NCBI RefSeq assembly: GCF_036321535.1
Contig: NC_087436.1
Location: 13,578,001-13,642,000, forward strand
From: Camelus dromedarius
Lineage: Eukaryota
Reading direction: 5' to 3'
Length of the DNA stretch: 64,000 bases
The position numbers and the translations under genes are program-made. This document shows positions 1,045-48,104 of the stretch, piece after piece (the first letter of the stretch is position 1; each line of letters starts with the position of its first letter). The notes under the pieces are model-generated. The model was not told the origin of the DNA. It searched no databases and worked only from the letters and a program-made list of their open reading frames with translations.

Positions 1045-3402
1045 CTAGGACTTTATTGCAGCTCTCAAATTGAACCAAAACCCCTCCCGCTGCATTTCAT
1101 CAGCGGGCCACTCCAGGTAGGTCTTGGTGTTCATTATCTTCCGCAGTTTACAGAAGCGCTGGGGAATGGCCTTCCTCTCAATGGGCTCCAGCAGGATGAG
1201 GATGGCGGCGTCATCGCTCTCGTCAAAGAGACGGAAATGGGAGAAGTCCAGTTCGTACTTGCACCACTCGCTCTTCACAAAGTTCTCCGAGAGCACAAAG
1301 ATGGTTTTGTGGCTCTTTTCAATGCAGTCGATGATATTGTCAATAATCCATTTGCCAGGAATGAAGTCCCGCTTGTGAAGACACAACTTGAAGGGCGGGT
1401 TGAAGTGCTCCAGCTCCTGGACCATGAGGTTCTCCACCCAGTAGGAATCCTGCTCACTGTAGGACACAAAGGCGTCATAACAGAGGTCCCCGCGGGGAGC
1501 CTTCTTGGGCTTCCGTTTGGCCTGGAGCCAGGCCCACATCATCTTCATGTACCACACGCCGTGGAAATGGTGGCACAGAACCCCGGTGAGCAGGAGCAAC
1601 AGGAAAAGGGCGCAGCACGCGGCGGACACCACGGCTGCCCTGTGGCATTCAGCCACCGAGAGCCGGGCGTCCTGAACCCGCCGGCCCCGCACGTGGGATG
1701 GAGAGTCACACAGGTAGTTTTCTGGCCAGTCGATCAGGACCTGGGCCAGTGCTCGCTGCCCCTGCGTGAAAGACAGGAAGTCACAGGAGCAAATGAAGCT
1801 GTTGCCGCCGGCTTCCAAAGTCTTCAGCTTTTGAAAAGAGGCAAGTTGCTCCTTAGAGAAAGTACTGATTGTATTTCTACTGATTCTCATAACTAATAAC
1901 GTGGGTAAGGAGGAAGCATCTGGGAGGGTCTTCAACTTATTCCTGGAAATATAAAGTTCTTTGAGTTGCGGCAAAATCAAAGAAAATGAATTGAGATTGT
2001 TATTGCTAATATCTAAAATTTCCAGGGTCAGGGGGATGCAATAAGTTAAACTGTGTATTCTTGTGCTGGACAAGTTCAAGTATTTCATCTTTTCCGGCCA
2101 CTGACAATTTTCAGGCATTGAATCAAAATTATTCTTACTGATATCCAGGTGAGTCAGGTTTTTCAGAGTAAGCAAAACTTCGCCAGTTTTTTCTAATGAT
2201 TTCAAATGATTTTGCCTTAAAATTAAGGTTTGCAGGAAGGGCCAGGCATGCTCACAGGCTGAGTTTTCCAAGTATTCTTCAGACATTAAATTTTCACTGA
2301 GATCCAAATATTCTAACGATTTTAAGTGTTGTGAGAGTAAACAGGGAACCAGAAAAACCTTACTGTTTTCTATTATGATTCTTTTCACTTTTCCCGTGAG
2401 TGAATATATACTGCTCAGATCGTAAAATAAGAAAAAATTTGGAATAGTCAACTTCCGTACTGTTAACGTCTCCACGTTACCTAGGTATTTAAGTGTGCCT
2501 AAAACAGGCGTTCTAAATTTACCAAGTCCGTTCAGGGTGCAGCCATCAAACTCTACTTCTAACATCCCAGAAATATAATTCAGCAGTTTCACCAGCTCAC
2601 TAAAACTTTCATCAGTGATTTTTACATTTCTAAAGGTCAACTTGTTAATCCATGTATTGGTTTCATAGACGGCTATTTCTGAAATAGAGAACGTGTTCAG
2701 ATCAGTATCTCGCAGTTCTAAATGTCCGACAGAGCTTAAAAGATCTCCAAGGATCTCTAGCAGTGAAACCGGCTGCCTCATGCGAAGGATCAGATGAGTG
2801 ATGTTCTGAATTGACCTCAAACTCTTTGGCTCATACCTCTGCAGATTTGAAGCATCGATCTCAAGTTCCTCAAGAAAATTGAGCCCAGAGAAATCCTTTT
2901 CCTGAATCTCGGAGAAGGGGTTACTATTTCCTACTTTCAGAATTCGCAGATTGGGGAGATGAGAAAAAAGAGACGTTTCGCCAAGTGTTCTGTAAGGATT
3001 TCCCAGCAAGTTTAAGAATTTCAAGGCAGAAAGGGTCCTGAACCAGGAAGGTGATAAGTTAGACAAGCGATTATAGGATAAGTCCAAATGTTCGAGGCTC
3101 CTCAGGGGAAAAAAGGAATCTTCCTCTATTGTGTGGACTCCATTGGACCCCAGCCTCAAGGCCTTGAGGCCCACACACCTCTGCAGGTCATTGTTGCCGA
3201 CATAGGTGATCTTGTTATCGGACAGGTCAAGGCTTTTCACAGCTGCCGTGAGCCCTGGGGGGATGGCGTTTAAAGATCTGGCACGGCCATCACAGACGCC
3301 AGTGGGGTCACAAGACAGAGAATGGGCCTGATCAAGGGCCCCTTCCTTGGAGAGGCTGATTGCTGCTGCCAAGACCCACACTGTCCACAAAGCATGTGGC
3401 AT
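1045..3402 (-). CDS. TLR2: Toll-like receptor 2, complete single coding exon, 785 aa (signal peptide, LRR ectodomain, TM, TIR)
   Basis: Uninterrupted [14 protein letters not shown]...[11 protein letters not shown]...YDAFVSYS...[18 protein letters not shown]...LRAAIKS*. The true ATG is at 3402-3400, 16 nt downstream of a splice acceptor (tctcttatttgtag|GTTG, exon starts at 3418). The track's start at 3417 is a TTG. Confidence 0.98.
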
Positions 3403-6480: not shown

Positions 6481-7389
6481 TGGAAAATAAACCTGGTAAG
6501 AGTAGGCAACAAGAAGCAATAATTGAATTTTTTAATGTAATGATAGATAAGAAAAAAAACAACGCTCAGAAACCCGGATGAGGCTTTTTGGTATGAGGAA
6601 AAAGTTATGTAAATTTTAAATGATATTGTGAAGATAAAAACAATTTTGACAAGTAAGCCTATTTGGGAGGATGAATACAATTTAGATTTACTAAAAGGTC
6701 TTTATAAGGAGGTTACACTCAGGATGTCACATACAATAAATTATGCTCCATCACTAAAATCAAAACAAGATATTTAACCAAGCATGCCAAATTCTTAAAT
6801 ACAATAATGAAAAAAATTAACTGACACCTTAGAAACTTCCAAAATATGTTGTCAACATCCGGCAAGTTACGTAATAGGTGCATTATAAAAAGTTTAAAGA
6901 TACAAATGCTCTCTGCTTTTTGAAAAAAGGAACAAACTTAAAATATTGGTGAACAAGTCATTTTTTGAAAGGATGTTTGCCCCTTTTTTGGGAAGTGGGG
7001 AGTACTTTCAAGTCAGGCCATCTTATCTACCAGTTGCTTTTTGGTAAAAATCTGAGTTAGTCATAGTGCAGACAAGACCTTCTGCAAGATTACAAGCACC
7101 TCACCAGGCTGATTTGTTTACATCCGGATCAGTTTCCTTTGTCTCCCAGCCCTTCCCCCGCAACCACCCTCCCAACAGGAAAAACATCCTGGCTGGCGGC
7201 TTCTAAGTTCTAAACACAAGTTCTCATTTATAGAAGTTGAAGAAGTTGTAACGGCAGCGGGTGTGAAGCCCACCCTGGAGCAGAGGCCAGGCTCTGAATA
7301 GGGGAGCGAAGAGTCCTGGGCAGAACGGGATCTTGACCCTGTCCCACTTCTGAACCCTGGTGGCCGAAATCTACCTTTCACAGTTCGGC

Positions 7390-8400
7390 CCCAGGGGTAA
7401 CCAGTGAGCGCAGACGCACCCCCAGCAGGACGCGCCTGTGCAACCTGGAAAGCCTCTACCTGATCCCCGCCATCGCCGCTCGGGGGGACGAGGACGGAGG
7501 CGGCCAGGGCGCACAGAGCCGCCAGCGAGAGGGCGGCCCTAAGGGGAGGCCGAGCCACTGCCCACTCCCGCCTCCGGGATGCGGCCGCCTGGAGCCCTCG
7601 GAAGCGCCCTGCGGCCACCCCCTTGGAGGCTGGAGGGCGCTGGGCCCCGCCGCGGCCGGCGGGCACCGGGACGCCATGGGCTGGGCGTACCTGGGCCGCG
7701 CCCCGTCCCCTCTGGGCAGCTCCTGCTTCTCCCCCGGGCTCGCCTCCACCGGGCGGGTGTCCACATCCACGCGCGGGGCCGCGCAGACAGGACTGCGGGA
7801 GCGTCGACGGCCTGGGGACCGGGTGCTCCCGCCACCCCAGCGCCCGCGCCGCCTCCCCCGTACCCGAGTCGCGAGACTGGGACCCCGGGTGCCACCGATC
7901 GGGGAGCAGAGACCCCTGGCGCCCGCATCCGCGCCGCGGGCACCCTCCGGCCCCGCCTGCCCTCCCGACCGGGGACGGCGGCGGAGCTACGAGGCCCGCG
8001 GAGCGCGCTTTCCACACGACGTACCTGGGCGGCCGCGCCTTCTGCCGCCTCGGGTCGGGACCCGCCCGCGCCCAGGAGAACCTGCAGAGAGCAGTGCGTG
8101 CGGCCGGCGCCTCCTTCTCCCGGTGGGCGGGGACCACCCGCTCCGCGGAGTGCGCCTGGCTCCTGTGACCAGGGACACAACGGCACCTCCGCCCCTCCCC
8201 GCGGGCTCGGTCAGGTGACCGTCACCGAGGTCCTGCCCTGACAGCAGCCTCGTGCCGGGCCCGGGTCAGAAAAGATTGCTGGGACCTGGGTGGGGGTCGC
8301 GGGGCAGCGGAACGAGAACCGGGATGCTTGAGTCCACACCACCCCAACCCCGACCCCGCCACCCCACAGCCCCCTCCAACCTGGGATTCCCCCAAGGACA
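7390..8400 (-). promoter_or_regulatory. TLR2: CpG island / TLR2 promoter with GC boxes and a kappaB site
   Basis: Very high GC and CpG density. GC boxes at 8125-8132 and 8354-8360; GGGATTCCCC (rc GGGGAATCCC) at 8383-8392; ETS-type GGAAGT motifs on the minus strand just upstream (~8625, ~8675). Confidence 0.85.
8025..8110 (-). other. TLR2: TLR2 non-coding exon 1 (5' end approximate)
   Basis: Minus-strand donor CCCAG|gtacgtcgtg at 8025/8024, matching the human TLR2 exon-1 donor as I recall it; lies inside the CpG island. Confidence 0.7.
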
Positions 8401-11400
8401 GAAGCAGATTTCGAAACCAAAGAGAAGGCTTATTACCCTGCCAGTATTTTCTTCAAGCTTCAGGCACTCAAAGCCTCTTATTGCCCTGAAACATGCCGCT
8501 TTTACACGTCTCCGTTCTTCTCCATCCTCGGAAGTCCAAATTCCAGCTCGCGAATTATGCCTGATACCCACCTGTGCTCCTCCTCCTTTTCAGCACAACC
8601 CACCGGCCAGTGTATGTCCAGGGTCCACTTCCACCCGCAAGCCTGTGCTCTCCTGCGTTATATAACTCCCCAGTCACTTCCCAGACTGACACAGCAAGAT
8701 TTTGCCTGAGTTGCAGTTAAGGACAGCCCAGATGTTTTAAAACTTTCAGTCCTGTGGCAGTCTCCTGGTGGTGCATGACCGCCTCTGGCACCTACCTCCG
8801 ATCCCTGCTCTTACCATGAGAAGATGTGGGCTCCCGCCTACATCCAAGATTTTGAACCTTAGTCCATACCTTGCTCATTTCTATCCTTGCTTCTCAAAGT
8901 AAGTAATTTCAAAACCAGTCAGACTGGCTTTCTTCATGGCCCCAGAAACTAGTGAGGCATGTTTCTAGGGGAAACAAATAGCTTTTAAAAATTAAGCTGC
9001 CTTAATATTCATAAACTACATTTTATATTCACAATTACATTTGATCTTCCCAAATTGAGGTGGGAGGCTGAAGAAGTATTCTTGTTCCTCTTTTACACGG
9101 GAGGAAATGCCATGCAAATTGCAAGTGGCAGAAGTGAGATGTGAAACCAGAATTCTACCCTATGTTCAGGGTTCCTTCTGATACCCTGGTTTCTTGCCCC
9201 AACCTTCTATCTACCCTATTCTACATGCCTAGTGCTCAGTAAAGGTTCCAAACTCTGACAAACTTAATCACTAGGCTTAACGTGATGTGATGTGAACTTG
9301 AGAGAGTGGAGTCTGATTTTCCATATAGATTACTGATTACTGTGTGGAGATTTGTCTGTATCCCTGACCATCCAGGCCCTTCAGATGTCTGAAAGACTTT
9401 CTTCTTCTTACTTCTCCACCTCTTTTCCTCATGATTTCTCAACTGTGTACTTAAGAAAACTTCTTTCCAATTTCTTTGCCTTGAAACCCAAAACCTCTGT
9501 TCTTTCTCTGTCTAGCTTTTCTAGATGAACTGCCTAGATTGATTGATTTTATTGCTTCATAATCCCAAAGTCAATTCGAATATTCTGGCAAAGTTAGGTG
9601 GAAATCATTTATTTACCCACAACTTATTACTGGTGTCCTCTGTATACAGTGAAGATTTTTCTAAACATTCTCAGGAAGCTATTAGCACATTTTACTCAGG
9701 AACATTCTTACATGTGTTCAGTTCTTAACGTTTGCAAAGCTCTATCACATAAATCTTTTCACCTGAATCTCACACTAACACATGAAATAAATAGTTCTGA
9801 TATTACACCTTCAGGTCAAGTGATTAAAGAACTTGCCTCAAGTCACATGACTCACAGCAGCCAAGTGACAAATCCCAGGTCAGACTCCAAAACTCCTCAG
9901 CTTCTTTTCATTGTGACCTGAGACCTCCTCTAACTCCCTACAAAACTGTTTTTTCAGTTAGAAAATGAACAAAATATGGAAAAGTATTTGGTAAAAATGT
10001 AATGCTCATGGTATCTATATTTTGGAAACTGACTGAAATTCTAAAGTGAAGTTATCAAAAAACAGTCTGTGTCTTGTTCACATACAATATTTTGTAATAG
10101 TTAAAGAAAATAATAATACATCCATCAAAAACCACTTAATGAAAATCTGCTATAATCCTTGCACTAATACACAGATCTTTGTACACAAACACTCATTCTG
10201 CAAATTTTTTCTGCTTTGAACAGGTTTCAGTAACACCTGTAATTTTTTAAGAATCCTACTTGCTACTGCTTATGCAAAATAATGATAGCAAAATTCTAAA
10301 TCAAAATAGAGACAAGTTTTGAAAACTGAGAATATTTCATTGTGTAGATATTTTTCTTTTACCAACTAGAATTATTCTTTAACTCAAACCCTCCCTGCTG
10401 GGCAATGGCCTTCCTCTCAATGGGCTCCAGCAGGATGAGGATGGCGGCGTCATCGCTCTCGTCAAAGAGACGGAAATGGGAGAAGTCCAGTTCGTACTTG
10501 CACCACTCACTCTTCAAAGTTCTCCGAGAGCATAAAGATGGTTTTGTGGCTCTTTTTGATGTAGCTGATGATATTGTCAATAATCCATTTGCCAGGAATG
10601 AAGTCCCGCTTGTGAAGACACAACTTGAAGGGCGGGTTGAAGTGCTCCAGCTCCTGGACCATGAGGTTCTCCACCCAGTAGGAATCCTGCTCACTGTAGG
10701 ACACAAAGGCGTCATAACAGAGGTCCCCGCGGGGAGCCTTCTTGGGCTTCCGTTTGGCCTGGAGCCAGGCCCACATCATCTTCATGTACCACACGCCGTG
10801 GAAATGGTGGCACAGAACCCCGGTGAGCAGGAGCAACAGGAAAAGGGCGCAGCACGCGGCGGACACCACGGCTGCCCTGTGGCATTCAGCCACCGAGAGC
10901 CGGGCGTCCTGAACCCGCCGGCCCCGCACGTGGGATGGAGAGTCACACAGGTAGTTTTCTGGCCAGTCGATCAGGACCTGGGCCAGTGCTCACTGCCCCT
11001 GCGTGAAAGACAGGAAGTCGCGGGAGCAAATGGAGCTGTTGCTGCCGGCTTCCAAAGACTTCAGTTTGGGGGGGAAAAAATCAAGTTGTTTGTTAGAGAA
11101 AGTTTTATTTTCCTACCTATTACCAAGGAAGGAAGCATCTGGGAGGGTCTTCAACAGATACTTGAAAATGTTAAATTCTTTAGGATATGACAAAATAAAA
11201 GACTTTATTGCTAACATCTAATATGCCTAGAGTCTGGGAAACACTGAGTGTTAAATTGTGTAATTTTGCACTGGATAATTTCAATTATGTTTCCTTTTCT
11301 GGCCACTGGTAAGAACCAAGTGTACACTGACCAAGACCAATGTTAGTCAGATTTTTCTAGAGTAAGTAACATTCTCCAGAGTTTATAGATTATTTTGTCT

Positions 11401-11934
11401 TAAATTCAAACTCTGTAGGAAGCCTCACACATCCTTACGAACTGACTGTTTCAATTAGTCTCCAAGTATCAAATTTTCACTGAGATCCAGGTATCCTGTG
11501 GATTTGAAATATTGCATGCCAAGATGTGGTTGGTATTAAGCAGACTTTGGCACTTTCAACTGTGAATATCTTTAGTTAATATAAAACAAGCATGTCTTTA
11601 AAGTTCTGTCATCATGGAAGATTCTCATAGCTAAGCTCTGTTGTTATTATAGTTTCTGTTGAGCCTGGTCTGATCATGGAATCTCAGCCACCCCATTTTC
11701 CATTTTCCTGAAGTACAGTCTTCCAGTTCGACATCCAATAACTGTTTTTCAAATCTTACTGTTTAATTACTTCAATTTGTTTTACTATTAGTTTTTTCGC
11801 TGTGAGCCTGAGTGTTAAGATTTTCTTGTTACCTGTGATCTCATGTGAAGAGCAGTGTTTCTCACATTTAAATACTTTGAAAACTTCAAAGATTGCCAAA
11901 AACCTTTCAGAATAAAATTGACCTCTTCATATCT

Positions 11935-12908
11935 GGTCAAAAGATACAAATTCCCAGTTATAAGATACATAAGTTCTGGGAATGTAACATACAGCATGGT
12001 GACTATAGTTAATAATAGTGTATTATACTTTTGAAAGTTGCTAAGAAAGTAGATCTTAAAATTCTCAACAAAAGAGCAAAGTTGTAACTATGTGAAATGA
12101 TGGATGTTAAACTTATTGTGATAATTATCTCACAATATATACATATATCAAATAATTATGTTATACACCTTAAACAAATACAATTGTACATGGCAATCAT
12201 ATTGCAATAAAACTGCGGGGGTGGGGGGAACACATTAAGATACCACTACATGCTCACTAGAATGGCTAAAATTAAAGATTGACAATACCAAGCATCGGTA
12301 AAGATGTTGAATAACTGAAACTCTCATATGTTGCTGGTGGGAATGCAAAATGATATACCCACTTAGGGAAAATTTGATCATTTCCTGTAAAATTAAATAT
12401 GCACTTACTCAGTGACCCAGCAATCTCAATCCTGGGTATTTACCCACAAGAAATGAAAAAAAATAAGTCCACACAAAAGCATGTACTTTATTCAGAGCTA
12501 GAAACAACCCCAATATCTATCAACTCGTGAATAGATAGATTGTTGTGTATCTGTACAAGAGAAAGCTACTCAACATAAGAAGGCAGAGCCACTGAAATAT
12601 GCAAGAATGGATGATCTGAAAGGAATTATATTAAGTGAAAGAAGTCAGACACAGACAATAAATATTATAGAACCCATTCATGTGAAATTCTACACAAAGC
12701 AAAACTGTGACAGAAAGCAGAGCTATCAGGGAGCCAGGTGGGGGAATGGACTGACCACAAAGGGGGATGCAGGGGACTTCGAGGGCAATAGAAATGTTCT
12801 GTATCATGATTGTGACTGCAGTTACATGACTGTCTCTGTCAAGCTCATCAAACTGTACTTTTTAAATTGATAAATTTTATTGCATATAAATTATCTTAAA
12901 AAAAAAAC
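11935..12908 (+). mobile_element. Two adjacent L1 fragments inside the pseudogene (L1MA-type 3'UTR ~11935-12215; older L1M ORF2-end/3'UTR ~12230-12908)
   Basis: Motifs gactatagttaataatagtgtattatacttttgaaagttgctaag and gataccactacatgctcactagaatggctaaaattaaa; A-tail at ~12898-12908. Confidence 0.8.
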
Positions 12909-13569
12909 CGACTTTGGTAAATCTTCCCTCCAAGTACAAAGGATGGATATATCAGATCTCCAAAACAGAGGTGCCATCTCTTGCTAGTCTTTGGGAGAAG
13001 GAAGGAGAAAGCACCTAATTTCTTTGGCGGGTCATCCTGCCTTACATATAAAACATCTCCTTTCACCTTAATAAGTTTACTTTCATTTCTCTCACTTGCA
13101 ACCCAAAGAGATTTGACTAAGATATTTCTTGATGGAAAGAAAATTGTTTCTTAATTGTTTGAAGTCCAAACTACCTAGAAATATAGTATAAAATCTTCTA
13201 ATATCATATTCAGATGCTTTATCCCTCTGGAATGCTACTTTCCAACTTTTCACCTTGCCAATAGCACACCATGCATATTCAGAGCAATTCACCACCCAAA
13301 TTTTACAAAGTTCATTCCAGGACTAAACTTGTCATCCTATAATGATTCCAGAAATTAAGATCTTCCTAGCAAGAATGGTCTAAATGTTTATTCTTTAAAA
13401 AGAAAGAAAGAAAGACCAACCAAATCTTTCAGAGTAAAATTGACTGCTTCAGCTGTCAGCCCCAGTGACTGATCTTCTACCTTGATTTCAAACTTCTTGG
13501 TACATTTTGCCAAGGCTTAGAAGCATCAATCTTAAGTTCATTCAGAATAGAAATTCCATAAAAATTTTG

Positions 13570-13622
13570 TTTTTTAAATTTTTTTATATATATATTTTTA
13601 TTGAAGTATAATCAGTTTACAG
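13570..13622 (-). mobile_element. Very short 5'-truncated L1 3' end inside the pseudogene
   Basis: Reverse complement reads ctgtaaactgattatacttcaataaaaa plus an A-rich tail, matching the L1 terminus at 48383-48413. Confidence 0.7.
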
Positions 13623-13689
13623 TAATTTAGATAATTTGTAAATATTTCAGGAGTCTGAAACTTGGGAAATGAAAAAAAGAAAGAGGGAA

Positions 13690-13882
13690 AGAGATAAACA
13701 AGATTATACTGTGTAGCACAGGGAAATATATACAAGATCTTATGGTAGCTCACAGAGAAAGGAATGTGACAATGAATACATGTATGTTCATGTATAACTG
13801 AAAAATTGTGCTCTACACTGGAATTTGACACAACATTGTAAAATGATTATAAATCAATAAAAAATGTTAAGAAAAAAAAAAA
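13690..13882 (+). mobile_element. Young L1 3'UTR fragment with poly(A) and TSD, inside the pseudogene
   Basis: ataaacaagattatactgtgtagcacagggaaatata...caataaaaaa. TSD aaagagggaa at 13680-13689 and 13883-13892. Confidence 0.85.
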
Positions 13883-16109
13883 AAAGAGGGAAGGAGATTT
13901 TTCTTCAAGTTCTTTGATGCTCTATCCCAGAAGCAAAGGACCGAGCTATGAAGATGACATTGAGATAAGCTGCTATAATTTAGGTCCAAATATACGAGAC
14001 TGTCAAGGACAAGGCAAATAATTTTCATCTGTTGCAGGACTTGTTCTAGACGAAAGAAAAGGAGCTTCCAAATTCACATACACCTGCTGAATGTGGCTGG
14101 ATGTAACTGTTATGAGGGCGTGGGCTTTGCTCTCCTTTTTGCAGTGAAGTATCATCAGCCCTGAGAGCATGGAAGGTACTGTCACCTACTACTTGTTGGG
14201 TGGGGAACTGACATGCCCCTTCAGAGCATCAATTAGGTCCAGAGGAATGGAGTATAAACATTGGAGATTCAGCTGGAACTGCAAGGAGAGAACTCTGACC
14301 GGTGGCTTCTTGCTCCAGCTTCCTACCATTGCCACACAATAGCCGACCTCATTTAAAGACAAGAATGAAGACATACAGTGTATTCTTTCCAATCACAGAG
14401 TCAGACACAACCGTGAGTGAGCAACTGGTATCGTTGTAATATCTGTAAGGGTTTTATGTCCTCATCAGGCAGGAAGAATATGAAAAGAACACAAAAGTTC
14501 ATCCACTTCCAAATTCCTTGGAGCTCCTTGGAAAATATTTTGAAATATCTAGACTCAAATAACTGTTAAATCCAACCATGTGGTGTGGCAGTCTGGGTAG
14601 GAGATGCTACCTTCTGTGTGGATGGAAAAAATGAGCTCATGATAATGACAAACCCAGGGACATGAGCTGTGTGACCACTGTCTTCTTCAGGTCCCAGTCA
14701 TATTATAAAGCATAACCAGGGTTCAGTGCGTACTAAACAGGGTCACAGACGAGACTACTGCCAGCTTCCTGGTCAGTATCATTGGCCAACTGTCTAAGAG
14801 GGAATCCCCGAATTATGTATGGTGCTGTAATGTCACTTAAACTATTTTAACATTTAATTAGCTGAGTTTGTCAGTAGGATCAAACAAAAGCTAAGGTTCC
14901 TTTTAAATGGTGTTTAAATTCGGTATATTTATAAATAAATATAGTCCAACCTAAAAGCTGAAGGAATGACAAGGTTTTTAATTTGGCAAATTTAGTAATT
15001 TAGATAGTAAATCATAAAGCCAGGGCAAACTTCTGAATTATCTCTTCTGCAGACAAAATTTTGTGGGGATATTAAAATAATGCCAACATTGACAAAATTA
15101 AATTTGAGTCACTAGAGAAAGAAATGTGCTAAGTGCTTCCTTTCTCCCCATGTTAACTGCTGCTCTTCCTCCTCTGCTGTGTCCACAGCTTCCTCCAGCC
15201 TGCATCAGTTGTGGCCTCATCTTCCAGTCTGCCAGTGTCCTTCTGTGTCCTGCCAGTGCTCCTGCCTCTTCCATATTTATTTAAAGCAAACAAACAAACA
15301 AAAATCAACGACATCTATCTTCCTCAGGTGTCTCTCTTTCTCTTCTTTCATACACCAGCTCTGGAAAGAGCGCTTCACATGTCCAGTCTCTATTTCCTCT
15401 CCTCTTGCCCTGTCTTCACTCTCCTCCAATAAGGCTTCCACCCCTGTGACTCCAAACAGCTTGCAAAGGTTATCAGCGATCACTATGTCGCTGACTCTCT
15501 TCCTGTCGCCTAGAACAGTTAGAACAGATCTCATTGTGACACTCCTTCCTTCTTAAAACATCCTCTCCCTTTGCTTCCATGACTCCACATGCTTAGTTTC
15601 CCTTTTTGACTCTCCTTTTCAGACTTATCCTTCCCTTCGCTGTTTCCCAGGTCTAGATCCTAGGCCACTCCTCACTGGCTGCTTTCTTCCTGAGGAGTCT
15701 CGTCTGTGCTCATCTGCGTGCCAGCTCCTTTCCAGTTGAAGTCTCCTGCACAGACATCTCAACAAGCTGCAGACCTAGAGAGGCAGCTGCCTTCTTGAGA
15801 CGTGTCCACGTGGGTGTCTCAGAGCAGTCCACTCAGCATGTCCAAGTTTGAGCTCATGACACCTCTTCCCGAGGCTGACCCCCTCCCAGCGTTCTTTATT
15901 TCAACACCTGGCACCACCATGCACCCAGATGACTCTGCTGGGAGACTTGTCCTGCTGATTTTACCTCGAATCCATCCAACTCTTTTTACTCCTACTTTCG
16001 TCATCCTAGTTCAAGCTACCTTCACCTGTTGTCTCGACTCCAAAAACAGCCTCCCAGTGGTCTCACCTGCTTTGCCTTCTCCGTATCGCTTGCTTCACCC
16101 TGCATCTAG

Positions 16110-16751: not shown

Positions 16752-16872
16752 CCCTCCACCATCACTATCAACCCCACCATCACCACCACCTCCATCATTA
16801 CAGAATCGCCAGCACCACCACCACCTCCACCAGCACCACCGCCACCTCCACCAGCAGCATCACCACCACCTG
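16752..16872. repeat. Degenerate (CAC/CCA)n trinucleotide repeat
   Basis: caccatcac...agcaccaccaccacctccaccagcaccaccgccacctccacc. Confidence 0.9.
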
Positions 16873-47535: not shown

Positions 47536-47774
47536 TACAAGTGAAAACGTGGGAATTCTTCCAACTGTTTCCAAGATGGAGACTTAAATAATAATACTAC
47601 TAATAATAACAGATGGAGGAAGGAAGGAAGAAAAAGAAAGTGGATAAAATTCAAAGCACAGCAAACACTCAAAGGCACAGGCATCTGTGCTCCGGGCCGG
47701 GGAGGCAGCCCTGGCCCCCGTCCTGGGTCCGGAGGAGGGCGGGGAGCGGGGCCACGACTCAGCCCCGGACTCAC

Positions 47775-47960
47775 CGGCCGGCTGGAAGTGCTGGGGGCCC
47801 GCCGTGAGCTTCTTGTCCCCGTCGGAGCTGCTGGTGCTGCTCCAGCTGCCCCAGCTGCCCCGGCTGGCACGCACGCTCCCCGAGGAGCTGCCGCAGTCCG
47901 AGCTGGAGTCTGAGCAGGACTTCTCCCCGCACTTCTTCCTGGAATCCTGGTAGTAACCCT
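47775..47960 (-). CDS. TMEM131L: TMEM131L exon ([10 protein letters not shown]...[33 protein letters not shown]...FQPA)
   Basis: ccctgcag|AG...GCCG|gtgagt; 186 nt; phase 1->1. Confidence 0.92.
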
Positions 47961-48104
47961 CTGCAGGGAGGAAGAGAGGCCACGTTCACCTACACAACGT
48001 TCAGGGCGAGGCCAACTCTCATCAAAGGAGGGAGGCCAAACTATGAAGACGGCAAGGTTCAACTTCAGATCCGCGACCTCTGCTCATCCAGAGAGAAGAA
48101 AAGT

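What the first reader, a model, noticed from the sequence alone, without database searches (positions are those of the whole stretch)
10404..10991. A dead TLR2 paralog carries 425-bp and 105-bp tracts 100% identical to the functional TM/TIR exon: recent, patchy gene conversion
Seen: 10567-10991 equals 1330-1754 base for base (425 bp), and 10404-10508 equals 1165-1269 (105 bp). A ~60-bp patch between them has several substitutions and a 2-bp deletion. Beyond ~11065 the same pseudogene is barely alignable and carries old L1 insertions. Known: a TLR2 pseudogene lies upstream of TLR2 in several mammals, and avian TLR2A/B show region-restricted conversion. Inference: an ancient pseudogene is still exchanging DNA with TLR2 in this lineage, but only over the signalling half. 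It could act as a donor of TIR variants or of null alleles.
Basis: partly seen in the sequence, partly recalled or inferred. Interest (0 to 1): 0.8.

Follow-up and report, generated by a model that had tools for sequence, protein, structure and literature searches.

The report
Camel TLR2 pseudogene repeatedly overwritten
A long-dead copy of the immune receptor gene TLR2 in a camel has had its signalling part recently overwritten from the working gene next door, a known process already reported for the horse that seems to have recurred in many mammal lineages.

Summary
The rest of the pseudogene is 26-40% diverged and heavily frameshifted. It is best explained by interlocus gene conversion within the last few million years. 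In the tracts the pseudogene carries 14 of 15 camel-derived residues and no ancestral ones. Bactrian and wild-camel protein models show the same tract and patch, which argues against an assembly artefact; no read-level check was obtained. The phenomenon is not new: Huang 2011 reported C-terminal TLR2/TLR2P conversion in the horse. What is added is breadth. Short 'TLR2' models from whales, cats, hyena, pinnipeds, bear, human and marmot each group with their own lineage's TLR2 (AU p=6.5e-37 against one pseudogene clade). Those from whales, cats, hyena, fur seal and a bear-like record stop at the same old ~23-codon deletion. Changes in the copies hit invariant sites at a neutral rate, so a selected decoy is unlikely. 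Donation back into TLR2 is not shown; a GC3 jump (0.41 to ~0.8) over the converted codons is the only hint.

The parts
1045..3402 (-). TLR2 coding sequence, 785 aa, single open frame; TIR at aa 642-768
7250..8250 (-). CpG island holding TLR2 exon 1 (7863-7928 matches the N-terminus of the wild-camel isoform X1 model); lies between gene and pseudogene
10366..10396 (-). Decayed TLR2P 3' tail beyond an old deletion of about 68-69 bp (~23 codons, gene ~1090-1157); its reading frames resemble the tails of whale, cat, fur-seal and bear-like models
10404..10508 (-). Conversion tract A, 105 bp identical to TLR2 1165-1269 (aa 712-746)
10509..10566 (-). Unconverted patch: 7 transitions and a 2-bp frameshifting deletion (aa 692-711); same residues in Bactrian and wild-camel models
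10567..10991 (-). Conversion tract B, 425 bp identical to TLR2 1330-1754 (aa 550-691); 59% GC, 22 CpG
10992..11064 (-). Older converted shoulder, 8% diverged; stop codon at codon 550 (arginine in the Bactrian model)
11065..11930 (-). Old pseudogene LRR part, 26-40% diverged, about 24 frameshifting indels in the 10340-11960 alignment; single copy apart from TLR2
11935..12910 (.). Old high-copy repeats interrupting TLR2P (L1-like by recollection)
13377..14172 (-). N-terminal LRR remnants of TLR2P, split by a repeat at 13688-13882

Best explanation
TLR2P is an old tandem duplicate, in the same orientation and 9.24 kb upstream of TLR2, and is dead as a receptor. When a DNA break near its C-terminal part is repaired, the neighbouring TLR2 serves as template and 100-500 bp are copied over (interlocus, non-allelic gene conversion). 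Each event restores near-perfect identity and so favours the next one. The LRR part, broken by indels and repeats, has dropped out, and an old ~23-codon deletion caps the 3' side, so the convertible zone has shrunk to codons ~525-746. Between events the copy decays neutrally. Events in the other direction that carry the frameshift patch would be purged. SHOWN: identity, strata, shared camel-derived residues, clustering by lineage, neutral-like decay. INFERRED: the break-repair mechanism, positive feedback, mainly gene-to-pseudogene direction, and the age.
For: Zero differences over 530 bp, including about 114 synonymous sites, beside K2P 0.32-0.57 in collinear flanks. At sites where camels differ from most of 12 outgroups, the pseudogene has the camel residue at 14 of 15 sites in the tracts (0 ancestral, 1 stop), against 6 camel, 9 ancestral and 14 other of 29 in the old part (Fisher p=0.0007). 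It matches Camelus at 176 of 177 tract codons and alpaca at 170 of 177. The Bactrian RefSeq model P0005 equals this pseudogene at 175 of 177 residues, patch included. The wild-camel model P0038 has the same patch. In a tree of 28 genes and 15 pseudogene-type rows, one pseudogene clade is rejected (p-AU 6.5e-37) and starred branches force at least 8 changes. 15 of 15 pseudogene-type rows best match a TLR2 of their own lineage. 22 of 46 distinct pseudogene changes hit invariant sites, against 25.5 expected if neutral and 22 of 78 for functional genes (p=0.033). Horse precedent in PMC3125219.
Against: No read-level confirmation of the tracts. Cross-species evidence is protein-level only. Locus identity of the short models is inferred from shared tails, adjacent accessions and equal contig lengths, and is weaker for human and marmot, whose models end before the deletion. 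The sample is biased to copies open enough to be annotated. Clustering by locus outside the tract could not be shown: the central LRR part also fell with camelids on a very long branch (98/88), in an alignment biased to camel DNA, and an ancient placement was not rejected (p=0.08). Huang 2011 found primate and dog genes and pseudogenes mostly in separate clusters. Direction was not tested. GENECONV was not run.
Confidence: 0.88

Rival explanations
1. Assembly or polishing artefact: TLR2 reads overwrote a merely similar pseudogene segment.
For: No read-level test was obtained. Word sharing in 14 runs of 7 studies (0.96-0.97) cannot reveal differences inside the tracts, because TLR2 supplies those words (32% of 31-mers). 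The old wild-camel model P0038 is chimeric around the tract, so assemblers do stumble here.
Against: Two other camel assemblies give the same tract and the same patch. An artefact that erased differences over 530 bp would have had to spare a 58-bp patch between the tracts. The same pattern appears in whales, cats, hyena and seals.
Confidence: 0.04
2. The C-terminal part of TLR2P is kept by selection as a truncated TIR decoy or regulatory RNA, with conversion acting as its repair mechanism.
For: A 92-aa ATG-started frame (juxtamembrane region to mid-TIR) is open here. A 133-aa frame is annotated in 4 cats.
Against: Changes hit invariant TIR residues at a neutral rate. Frames break at different places in camel, human, marmot, dolphin and Kogia. 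Identity includes all synonymous sites and is to the own species' gene, not to other pseudogenes.
Confidence: 0.06
3. A recent partial duplication or a double unequal crossover put a TLR2 fragment into the old locus, rather than repeated conversion.
For: A single genome cannot tell a double crossover from conversion.
Against: The tracts are in exact register with older strata of at least three ages (0%, 8-12%, 26-40%). They end at a deletion shared with whales and carnivores. The pattern recurs in many lineages.
Confidence: 0.02

Closest known systems
Horse TLR2P/TLR2 gene conversion (Huang et al. 2011, PMC3125219; read sections 17 and passages of 18, 23, 25, 29)
   Same: Tandem TLR2 pseudogene more like its own species' TLR2 in the C region; interpreted as recent conversion.
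   Different: That paper lists TLR2P for opossum, dog, human, chimpanzee, orangutan, rhesus, marmoset and horse, and treats the horse as the exception. It names no camelid, whale, felid or pinniped pseudogene in the passages read. Here the tracts are 100% identical and resolved into strata. Its sequence file (S4.DOC) and figures could not be read.
Mammalian TLR1/TLR6 C-terminal conversion (Kruithof 2007, PMC2077338, abstract start and two passages; Huang 2011 Table 1)
   Same: Concerted evolution limited to the C-terminal LRR-TM-TIR part of tandem single-exon TLRs. It is also visible in this genome: about 99% over four 150-bp windows, longest exact run 233 bp (L005/L006).
   Different: Both partners there are functional, so selection can favour homogenisation. 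Here one partner is dead and decays neutrally.
Avian TLR2A/TLR2B conversion (Huang 2011; Velova 2018, PMC6107061, passages)
   Same: Region-restricted conversion between tandem TLR2 copies, including the C region.
   Different: Both copies are functional, the N region is converted too, and the C tract starts near nt 1290 rather than codon 550. Whether TLR2P is the ortholog of TLR2B is disputed between these two papers and was not resolved here.

Membership tests
Mammalian TLR2P pseudogene | Second TLR2 copy in tandem with the functional gene | tested here: met
   Same strand, 9.24 kb upstream; the only other full match in the genome
Mammalian TLR2P pseudogene | Disabled reading frame | tested here: met
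   Stop at codon 550, 2-bp deletion in TIR, about 24 frameshifting indels, repeat insertions
Mammalian TLR2P pseudogene | Orthology with TLR2P of other mammals | tested here: inconclusive
   Shared ~23-codon deletion and similar tail with whale, cat, hyena, fur-seal and bear-like models. No DNA or synteny for those species; no horse or dog TLR2P sequence could be read
Interlocus gene conversion | Tract far more similar than collinear flanks, synonymous sites included | tested here: met
   0 of 530 differences against 8-40% in flanks
Interlocus gene conversion | Within the tract, paralogs group by species or lineage | tested here: met
   Protein tree, p-AU 6.5e-37; 14 of 15 camel-derived residues shared
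Interlocus gene conversion | Outside the tract, copies group by locus | tested here: inconclusive
   Only the camel pseudogene LRR part is available; roughly equidistant from placental TLR2s, long branch
Interlocus gene conversion | Non-reciprocal transfer (donor unchanged, no crossover) | not testable with these tools
   Needs population haplotypes or sperm typing; TLR2 is intact
Interlocus gene conversion | Identity is real DNA, not an assembly artefact | tested here: inconclusive
   Supported by Bactrian and wild-camel models; no read-level result
GC-biased gene conversion | Raised GC3 confined to the converted region and AT-to-GC substitution bias | tested here: inconclusive
   GC3 0.41 in the LRR part against 0.77-0.81 in codons 550-746. 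Seven other TLR loci with a measurable LRR part rise by at most about 0.23, but the unconverted tail is still 0.69. Substitution polarity was not tested

The most novel reading that the evidence does not exclude
TLR2 and its dead neighbour have exchanged the same ~600-bp segment in both directions in most placental lineages since before camels, whales and carnivores split. GC-biased repair during those exchanges drove the GC3 jump in TLR2's signalling part. The pseudogene supplies TIR variants to TLR2, and unequal crossover in the identical tract yields 9.2-kb deletion (null) alleles and duplication alleles (intact ectodomain, truncated TIR) that segregate in camels.
Probability: 0.2. Interest if true: 0.65.

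Novelty: new member of a known kind. Interest (0 to 1): 0.4.

Why it matters
Practical: short reads and PCR products from TLR2 codons 550-746 cannot be placed uniquely in camels, and probably not in cats, whales or seals. TLR2 TM/TIR variant calls and assemblies there are at risk, and databases list TLR2P as a second 'toll-like receptor 2' protein. Evolutionary: it is a replicated natural experiment on how long conversion keeps part of a dead gene looking young, and on where it stops (an old deletion on one side, accumulated indels on the other). Any tree built on the C-terminal part will falsely suggest independent duplications, which bears on the Huang 2011 versus Velova 2018 disagreement about the age of the TLR2 duplication. 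If exchange runs both ways it would be a mutational source for an innate-immunity gene, but that is not shown.

Tried and rejected
Read-level check: laying public runs on the pseudogene gave no data, so hidden differences inside the tracts, polymorphic tract ends and pseudogene transcription remain open. Pseudogene as source of the published 618-aa dromedary TLR2 (PMC4293908, first part of the text read): rejected for this haplotype, because its tail equals the gene read in a shifted frame from about codon 576 and the pseudogene has no indel there. Llama allele P0008 shares S536 with the pseudogene but has many singleton changes, so it was not counted as back-conversion. Age of the duplication from the central LRR part: inconclusive. 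The N-terminus of the Bactrian 197-aa model comes from a simple-repeat stretch at 16801-16860 and is probably a prediction artefact. Rows left out of the tree and counts: polar-bear 743-aa model (chimeric), ENA 115-aa and Logan 94-aa (degraded, no species); pseudogene rows were trimmed by eye to in-frame parts. A third protein search found no further clear TLR2P models. Roach 2005 was not held (known only through citations). Searches of earlier scan findings returned nothing. A Pfam test of the repeat was not possible because of stop codons.

Full report
Observation. Both tracts are exactly as described: 425 of 425 and 105 of 105 bases identical between 10567-10991 and 1330-1754, and between 10404-10508 and 1165-1269. 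The 58-bp patch between them has 7 transitions and a 2-bp deletion. A 73-bp shoulder (10992-11064) is 8% diverged. Beyond it, divergence rises to 26%, 30% and 40% (K2P 0.32, 0.39, 0.57), and a further block near 13377-13823 is 38% diverged. Zero differences would have probability 1.6e-16 and 1.3e-4 at the shoulder's divergence. A genome search with the C-terminal DNA found 3 matches of 3 scored: the gene, this copy and one weak match at another TLR locus, so there is no third young copy.

What the locus is. The 785-aa open frame at 1045-3402 (minus) is TLR2. It differs from the dromedary RefSeq protein at 2 positions and from the Bactrian at 4, sharing M280 and V310 with the dromedary, so the window is from an Old World camel, most likely a dromedary. 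Exon 1 lies in a CpG island at about 7250-8250. The second copy lies upstream of that promoter on the same strand. It is disabled by a stop at codon 550, the patch frameshift, about 24 frameshifting indels and old high-copy repeats. The tracts cover codons 550-691 and 712-746. The 3' edge of identity sits at a deletion of about 68-69 bp in the pseudogene.

Is the identity real? A Bactrian RefSeq model, P0005 (197 aa), is that species' copy of this pseudogene: 175 of 177 residues equal the window's, including the patch residues and the frameshift end. An old wild-camel model, P0038, has the same patch inside a chimeric prediction. Fourteen runs from 7 studies hold 0.96-0.97 of the sampled words, which shows that the pseudogene-specific parts exist. 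It cannot exclude differences inside the tracts, because TLR2 supplies 32% of the words. No read-level result was obtained. An artefact is unlikely but not formally excluded.

Conversion test in camels. At sites where camels differ from at least 8 of 12 outgroup TLR2s, the pseudogene has the camel residue at 14 of 15 tract sites (the other is the stop, one CpG transition from the camel arginine codon) and at 2 of 2 shoulder sites. In the old part it has 6 camel, 9 ancestral and 14 other residues of 29 (p=0.0007). About 114 synonymous sites in the tracts show no difference, which protein-level selection cannot explain. With assumed rates of 1.0-2.2e-9 per site per year (my assumption, not from a call), the 95% upper age of the 425-bp tract is 2.6-5.8 Myr, or 1.5-3.3 Myr if CpGs mutate tenfold faster. 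That is well after the ~16.3 Ma split of Old and New World camels (PMC12337305, passage). The two residues that differ between the window's and the Bactrian pseudogene both lie in the 73-bp shoulder (post hoc p=0.012). This hints at conversion after the two camels split, in one lineage or the other.

Beyond camels. Protein searches returned short 'TLR2' models from gray whale, fin whale, Kogia, dolphin, lion, tiger, jaguar, lynx, spotted hyena, fur seal, human and marmot, plus an unnamed bear-like record. For lion, tiger, hyena and gray whale the short model shares a contig length with the full TLR2, and for lion and gray whale it has an adjacent accession or locus tag. The whale, cat, hyena, fur-seal and bear-like models stop matching at the same point as the camel deletion and, except the hyena model, which ends there, continue into tails resembling two reading frames of the camel tail. 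The deletion therefore predates these orders, while the sequence next to it carries each lineage's own TLR2 residues: the hyena copy is identical over 211 residues, and Kogia shares a Kogia-specific residue. All 15 pseudogene-type rows (2 of them camel) best match a TLR2 of their own lineage. A tree of 43 rows rejects one pseudogene clade (p-AU 6.5e-37; at least 8 changes forced by starred branches). Limits: protein only, short rows for Kogia, dolphin and marmot, locus identity inferred, three rows left out, and a sample biased to copies open enough to be annotated. No such model turned up for pig or cattle.

Function of the copy. Of 46 distinct changes in the copies, 22 hit sites invariant in 28 functional TLR2s. 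A neutral expectation is 25.5 (p=0.30), and functional genes show 22 of 78 (p=0.033). The frames also break at different places in different lineages. The copy behaves as neutral DNA that is periodically reset. An ATG-started 92-aa frame exists and one RNA run held more words than TLR2 alone explains (0.44 against about 0.32), but neither was confirmed.

Direction. The patch changes alter conserved residues in the pseudogene and TLR2 is intact, consistent with gene-to-pseudogene transfer. The only hint of the reverse is composition. GC3 is 0.41 in codons 250-520 and 0.77-0.81 in codons 550-746, while seven other TLR loci of this genome rise by at most about 0.23. The unconverted tail is still 0.69, and TIR regions tend to be somewhat GC-richer in most of the controls, so this is suggestive only.

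Mechanism (inferred from general knowledge of non-allelic homologous repair, recalled). Break repair templated on a direct repeat 9.24 kb away needs a few hundred bases of near-perfect identity, and each event renews it. Large indels stop tracts. The strata suggest a convertible zone that has shrunk. Codons 431-524 are about equally similar to all placental TLR2s (0.49-0.53) and less so to marsupials and monotremes (0.39-0.43), as if last homogenised early in placental history. The central part could not be placed reliably.

Literature. Huang 2011 (PMC3125219; section 17 and passages) reports TLR2P in eight mammals, and C-region conversion in the horse as an exception. Velova 2018 (PMC6107061, passages) disputes the age of the duplication. 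In eight full-text searches (seven on TLR2, one on camel divergence) I found no listing that describes camelid TLR2P or conversion across many orders. The library lacks most subscription papers, Roach 2005 was not held, and Huang's sequence file and figures could not be read.

Verdict. Real, recent interlocus gene conversion into the known TLR2P pseudogene; a new instance of a process already described at this locus. The clade-wide recurrence against a shared old deletion is the more interesting and apparently less-described part.

Noticed in passing
L005 and L006 (G000:C1 ~95.22-95.24 Mb): Two TLR1-family genes (TLR1/TLR6 by their ends, recalled) are about 99% identical over four 150-bp windows, longest exact run 233 bp; the third (L008) is not converted. 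This is the known TLR1/TLR6 conversion.
   Followed up: partly
window 16801-16860: A simple-repeat stretch supplies the first 20 residues of the Bactrian 197-aa 'TLR2' model; RefSeq lists TLR2P-derived models as protein-coding TLR2 in Bactrian camel and several cats and whales.
   Followed up: partly
window ~1672-1677 (TLR2 codon ~576): The published 618-aa dromedary TLR2 lacking TM and TIR (PMC4293908) is a frameshifted read from this point; the indel is absent from gene and pseudogene here, so it is either a cloning error or a rare allele.
   Followed up: partly
window 10557-10566: Five of the seven patch substitutions cluster in 10 bp, all transitions; possibly a relic of an older stratum or a multi-base mutation.
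   Followed up: no
window 7863-7928: Exon 1 carries an in-frame ATG that gives the 27-aa N-terminal extension of the wild-camel isoform X1 model.
   Followed up: no
L010 (G000:C37:55867222-55867653): A TIR match with only a 173-aa open frame; possibly another TLR pseudogene.
   Followed up: no
window 47584-47985 (minus): Serine-rich coding stretch resembling a TMEM131L exon (name recalled, not tested), the expected upstream neighbour of TLR2.
   Followed up: no
P0178, P0157, P0017 (residue 580): Gray-whale TLR2 and the fin-whale pseudogene share a tryptophan where five other baleen-whale TLR2s and the gray-whale pseudogene have arginine; recurrent CpG change or exchange, not resolved.
   Followed up: partly
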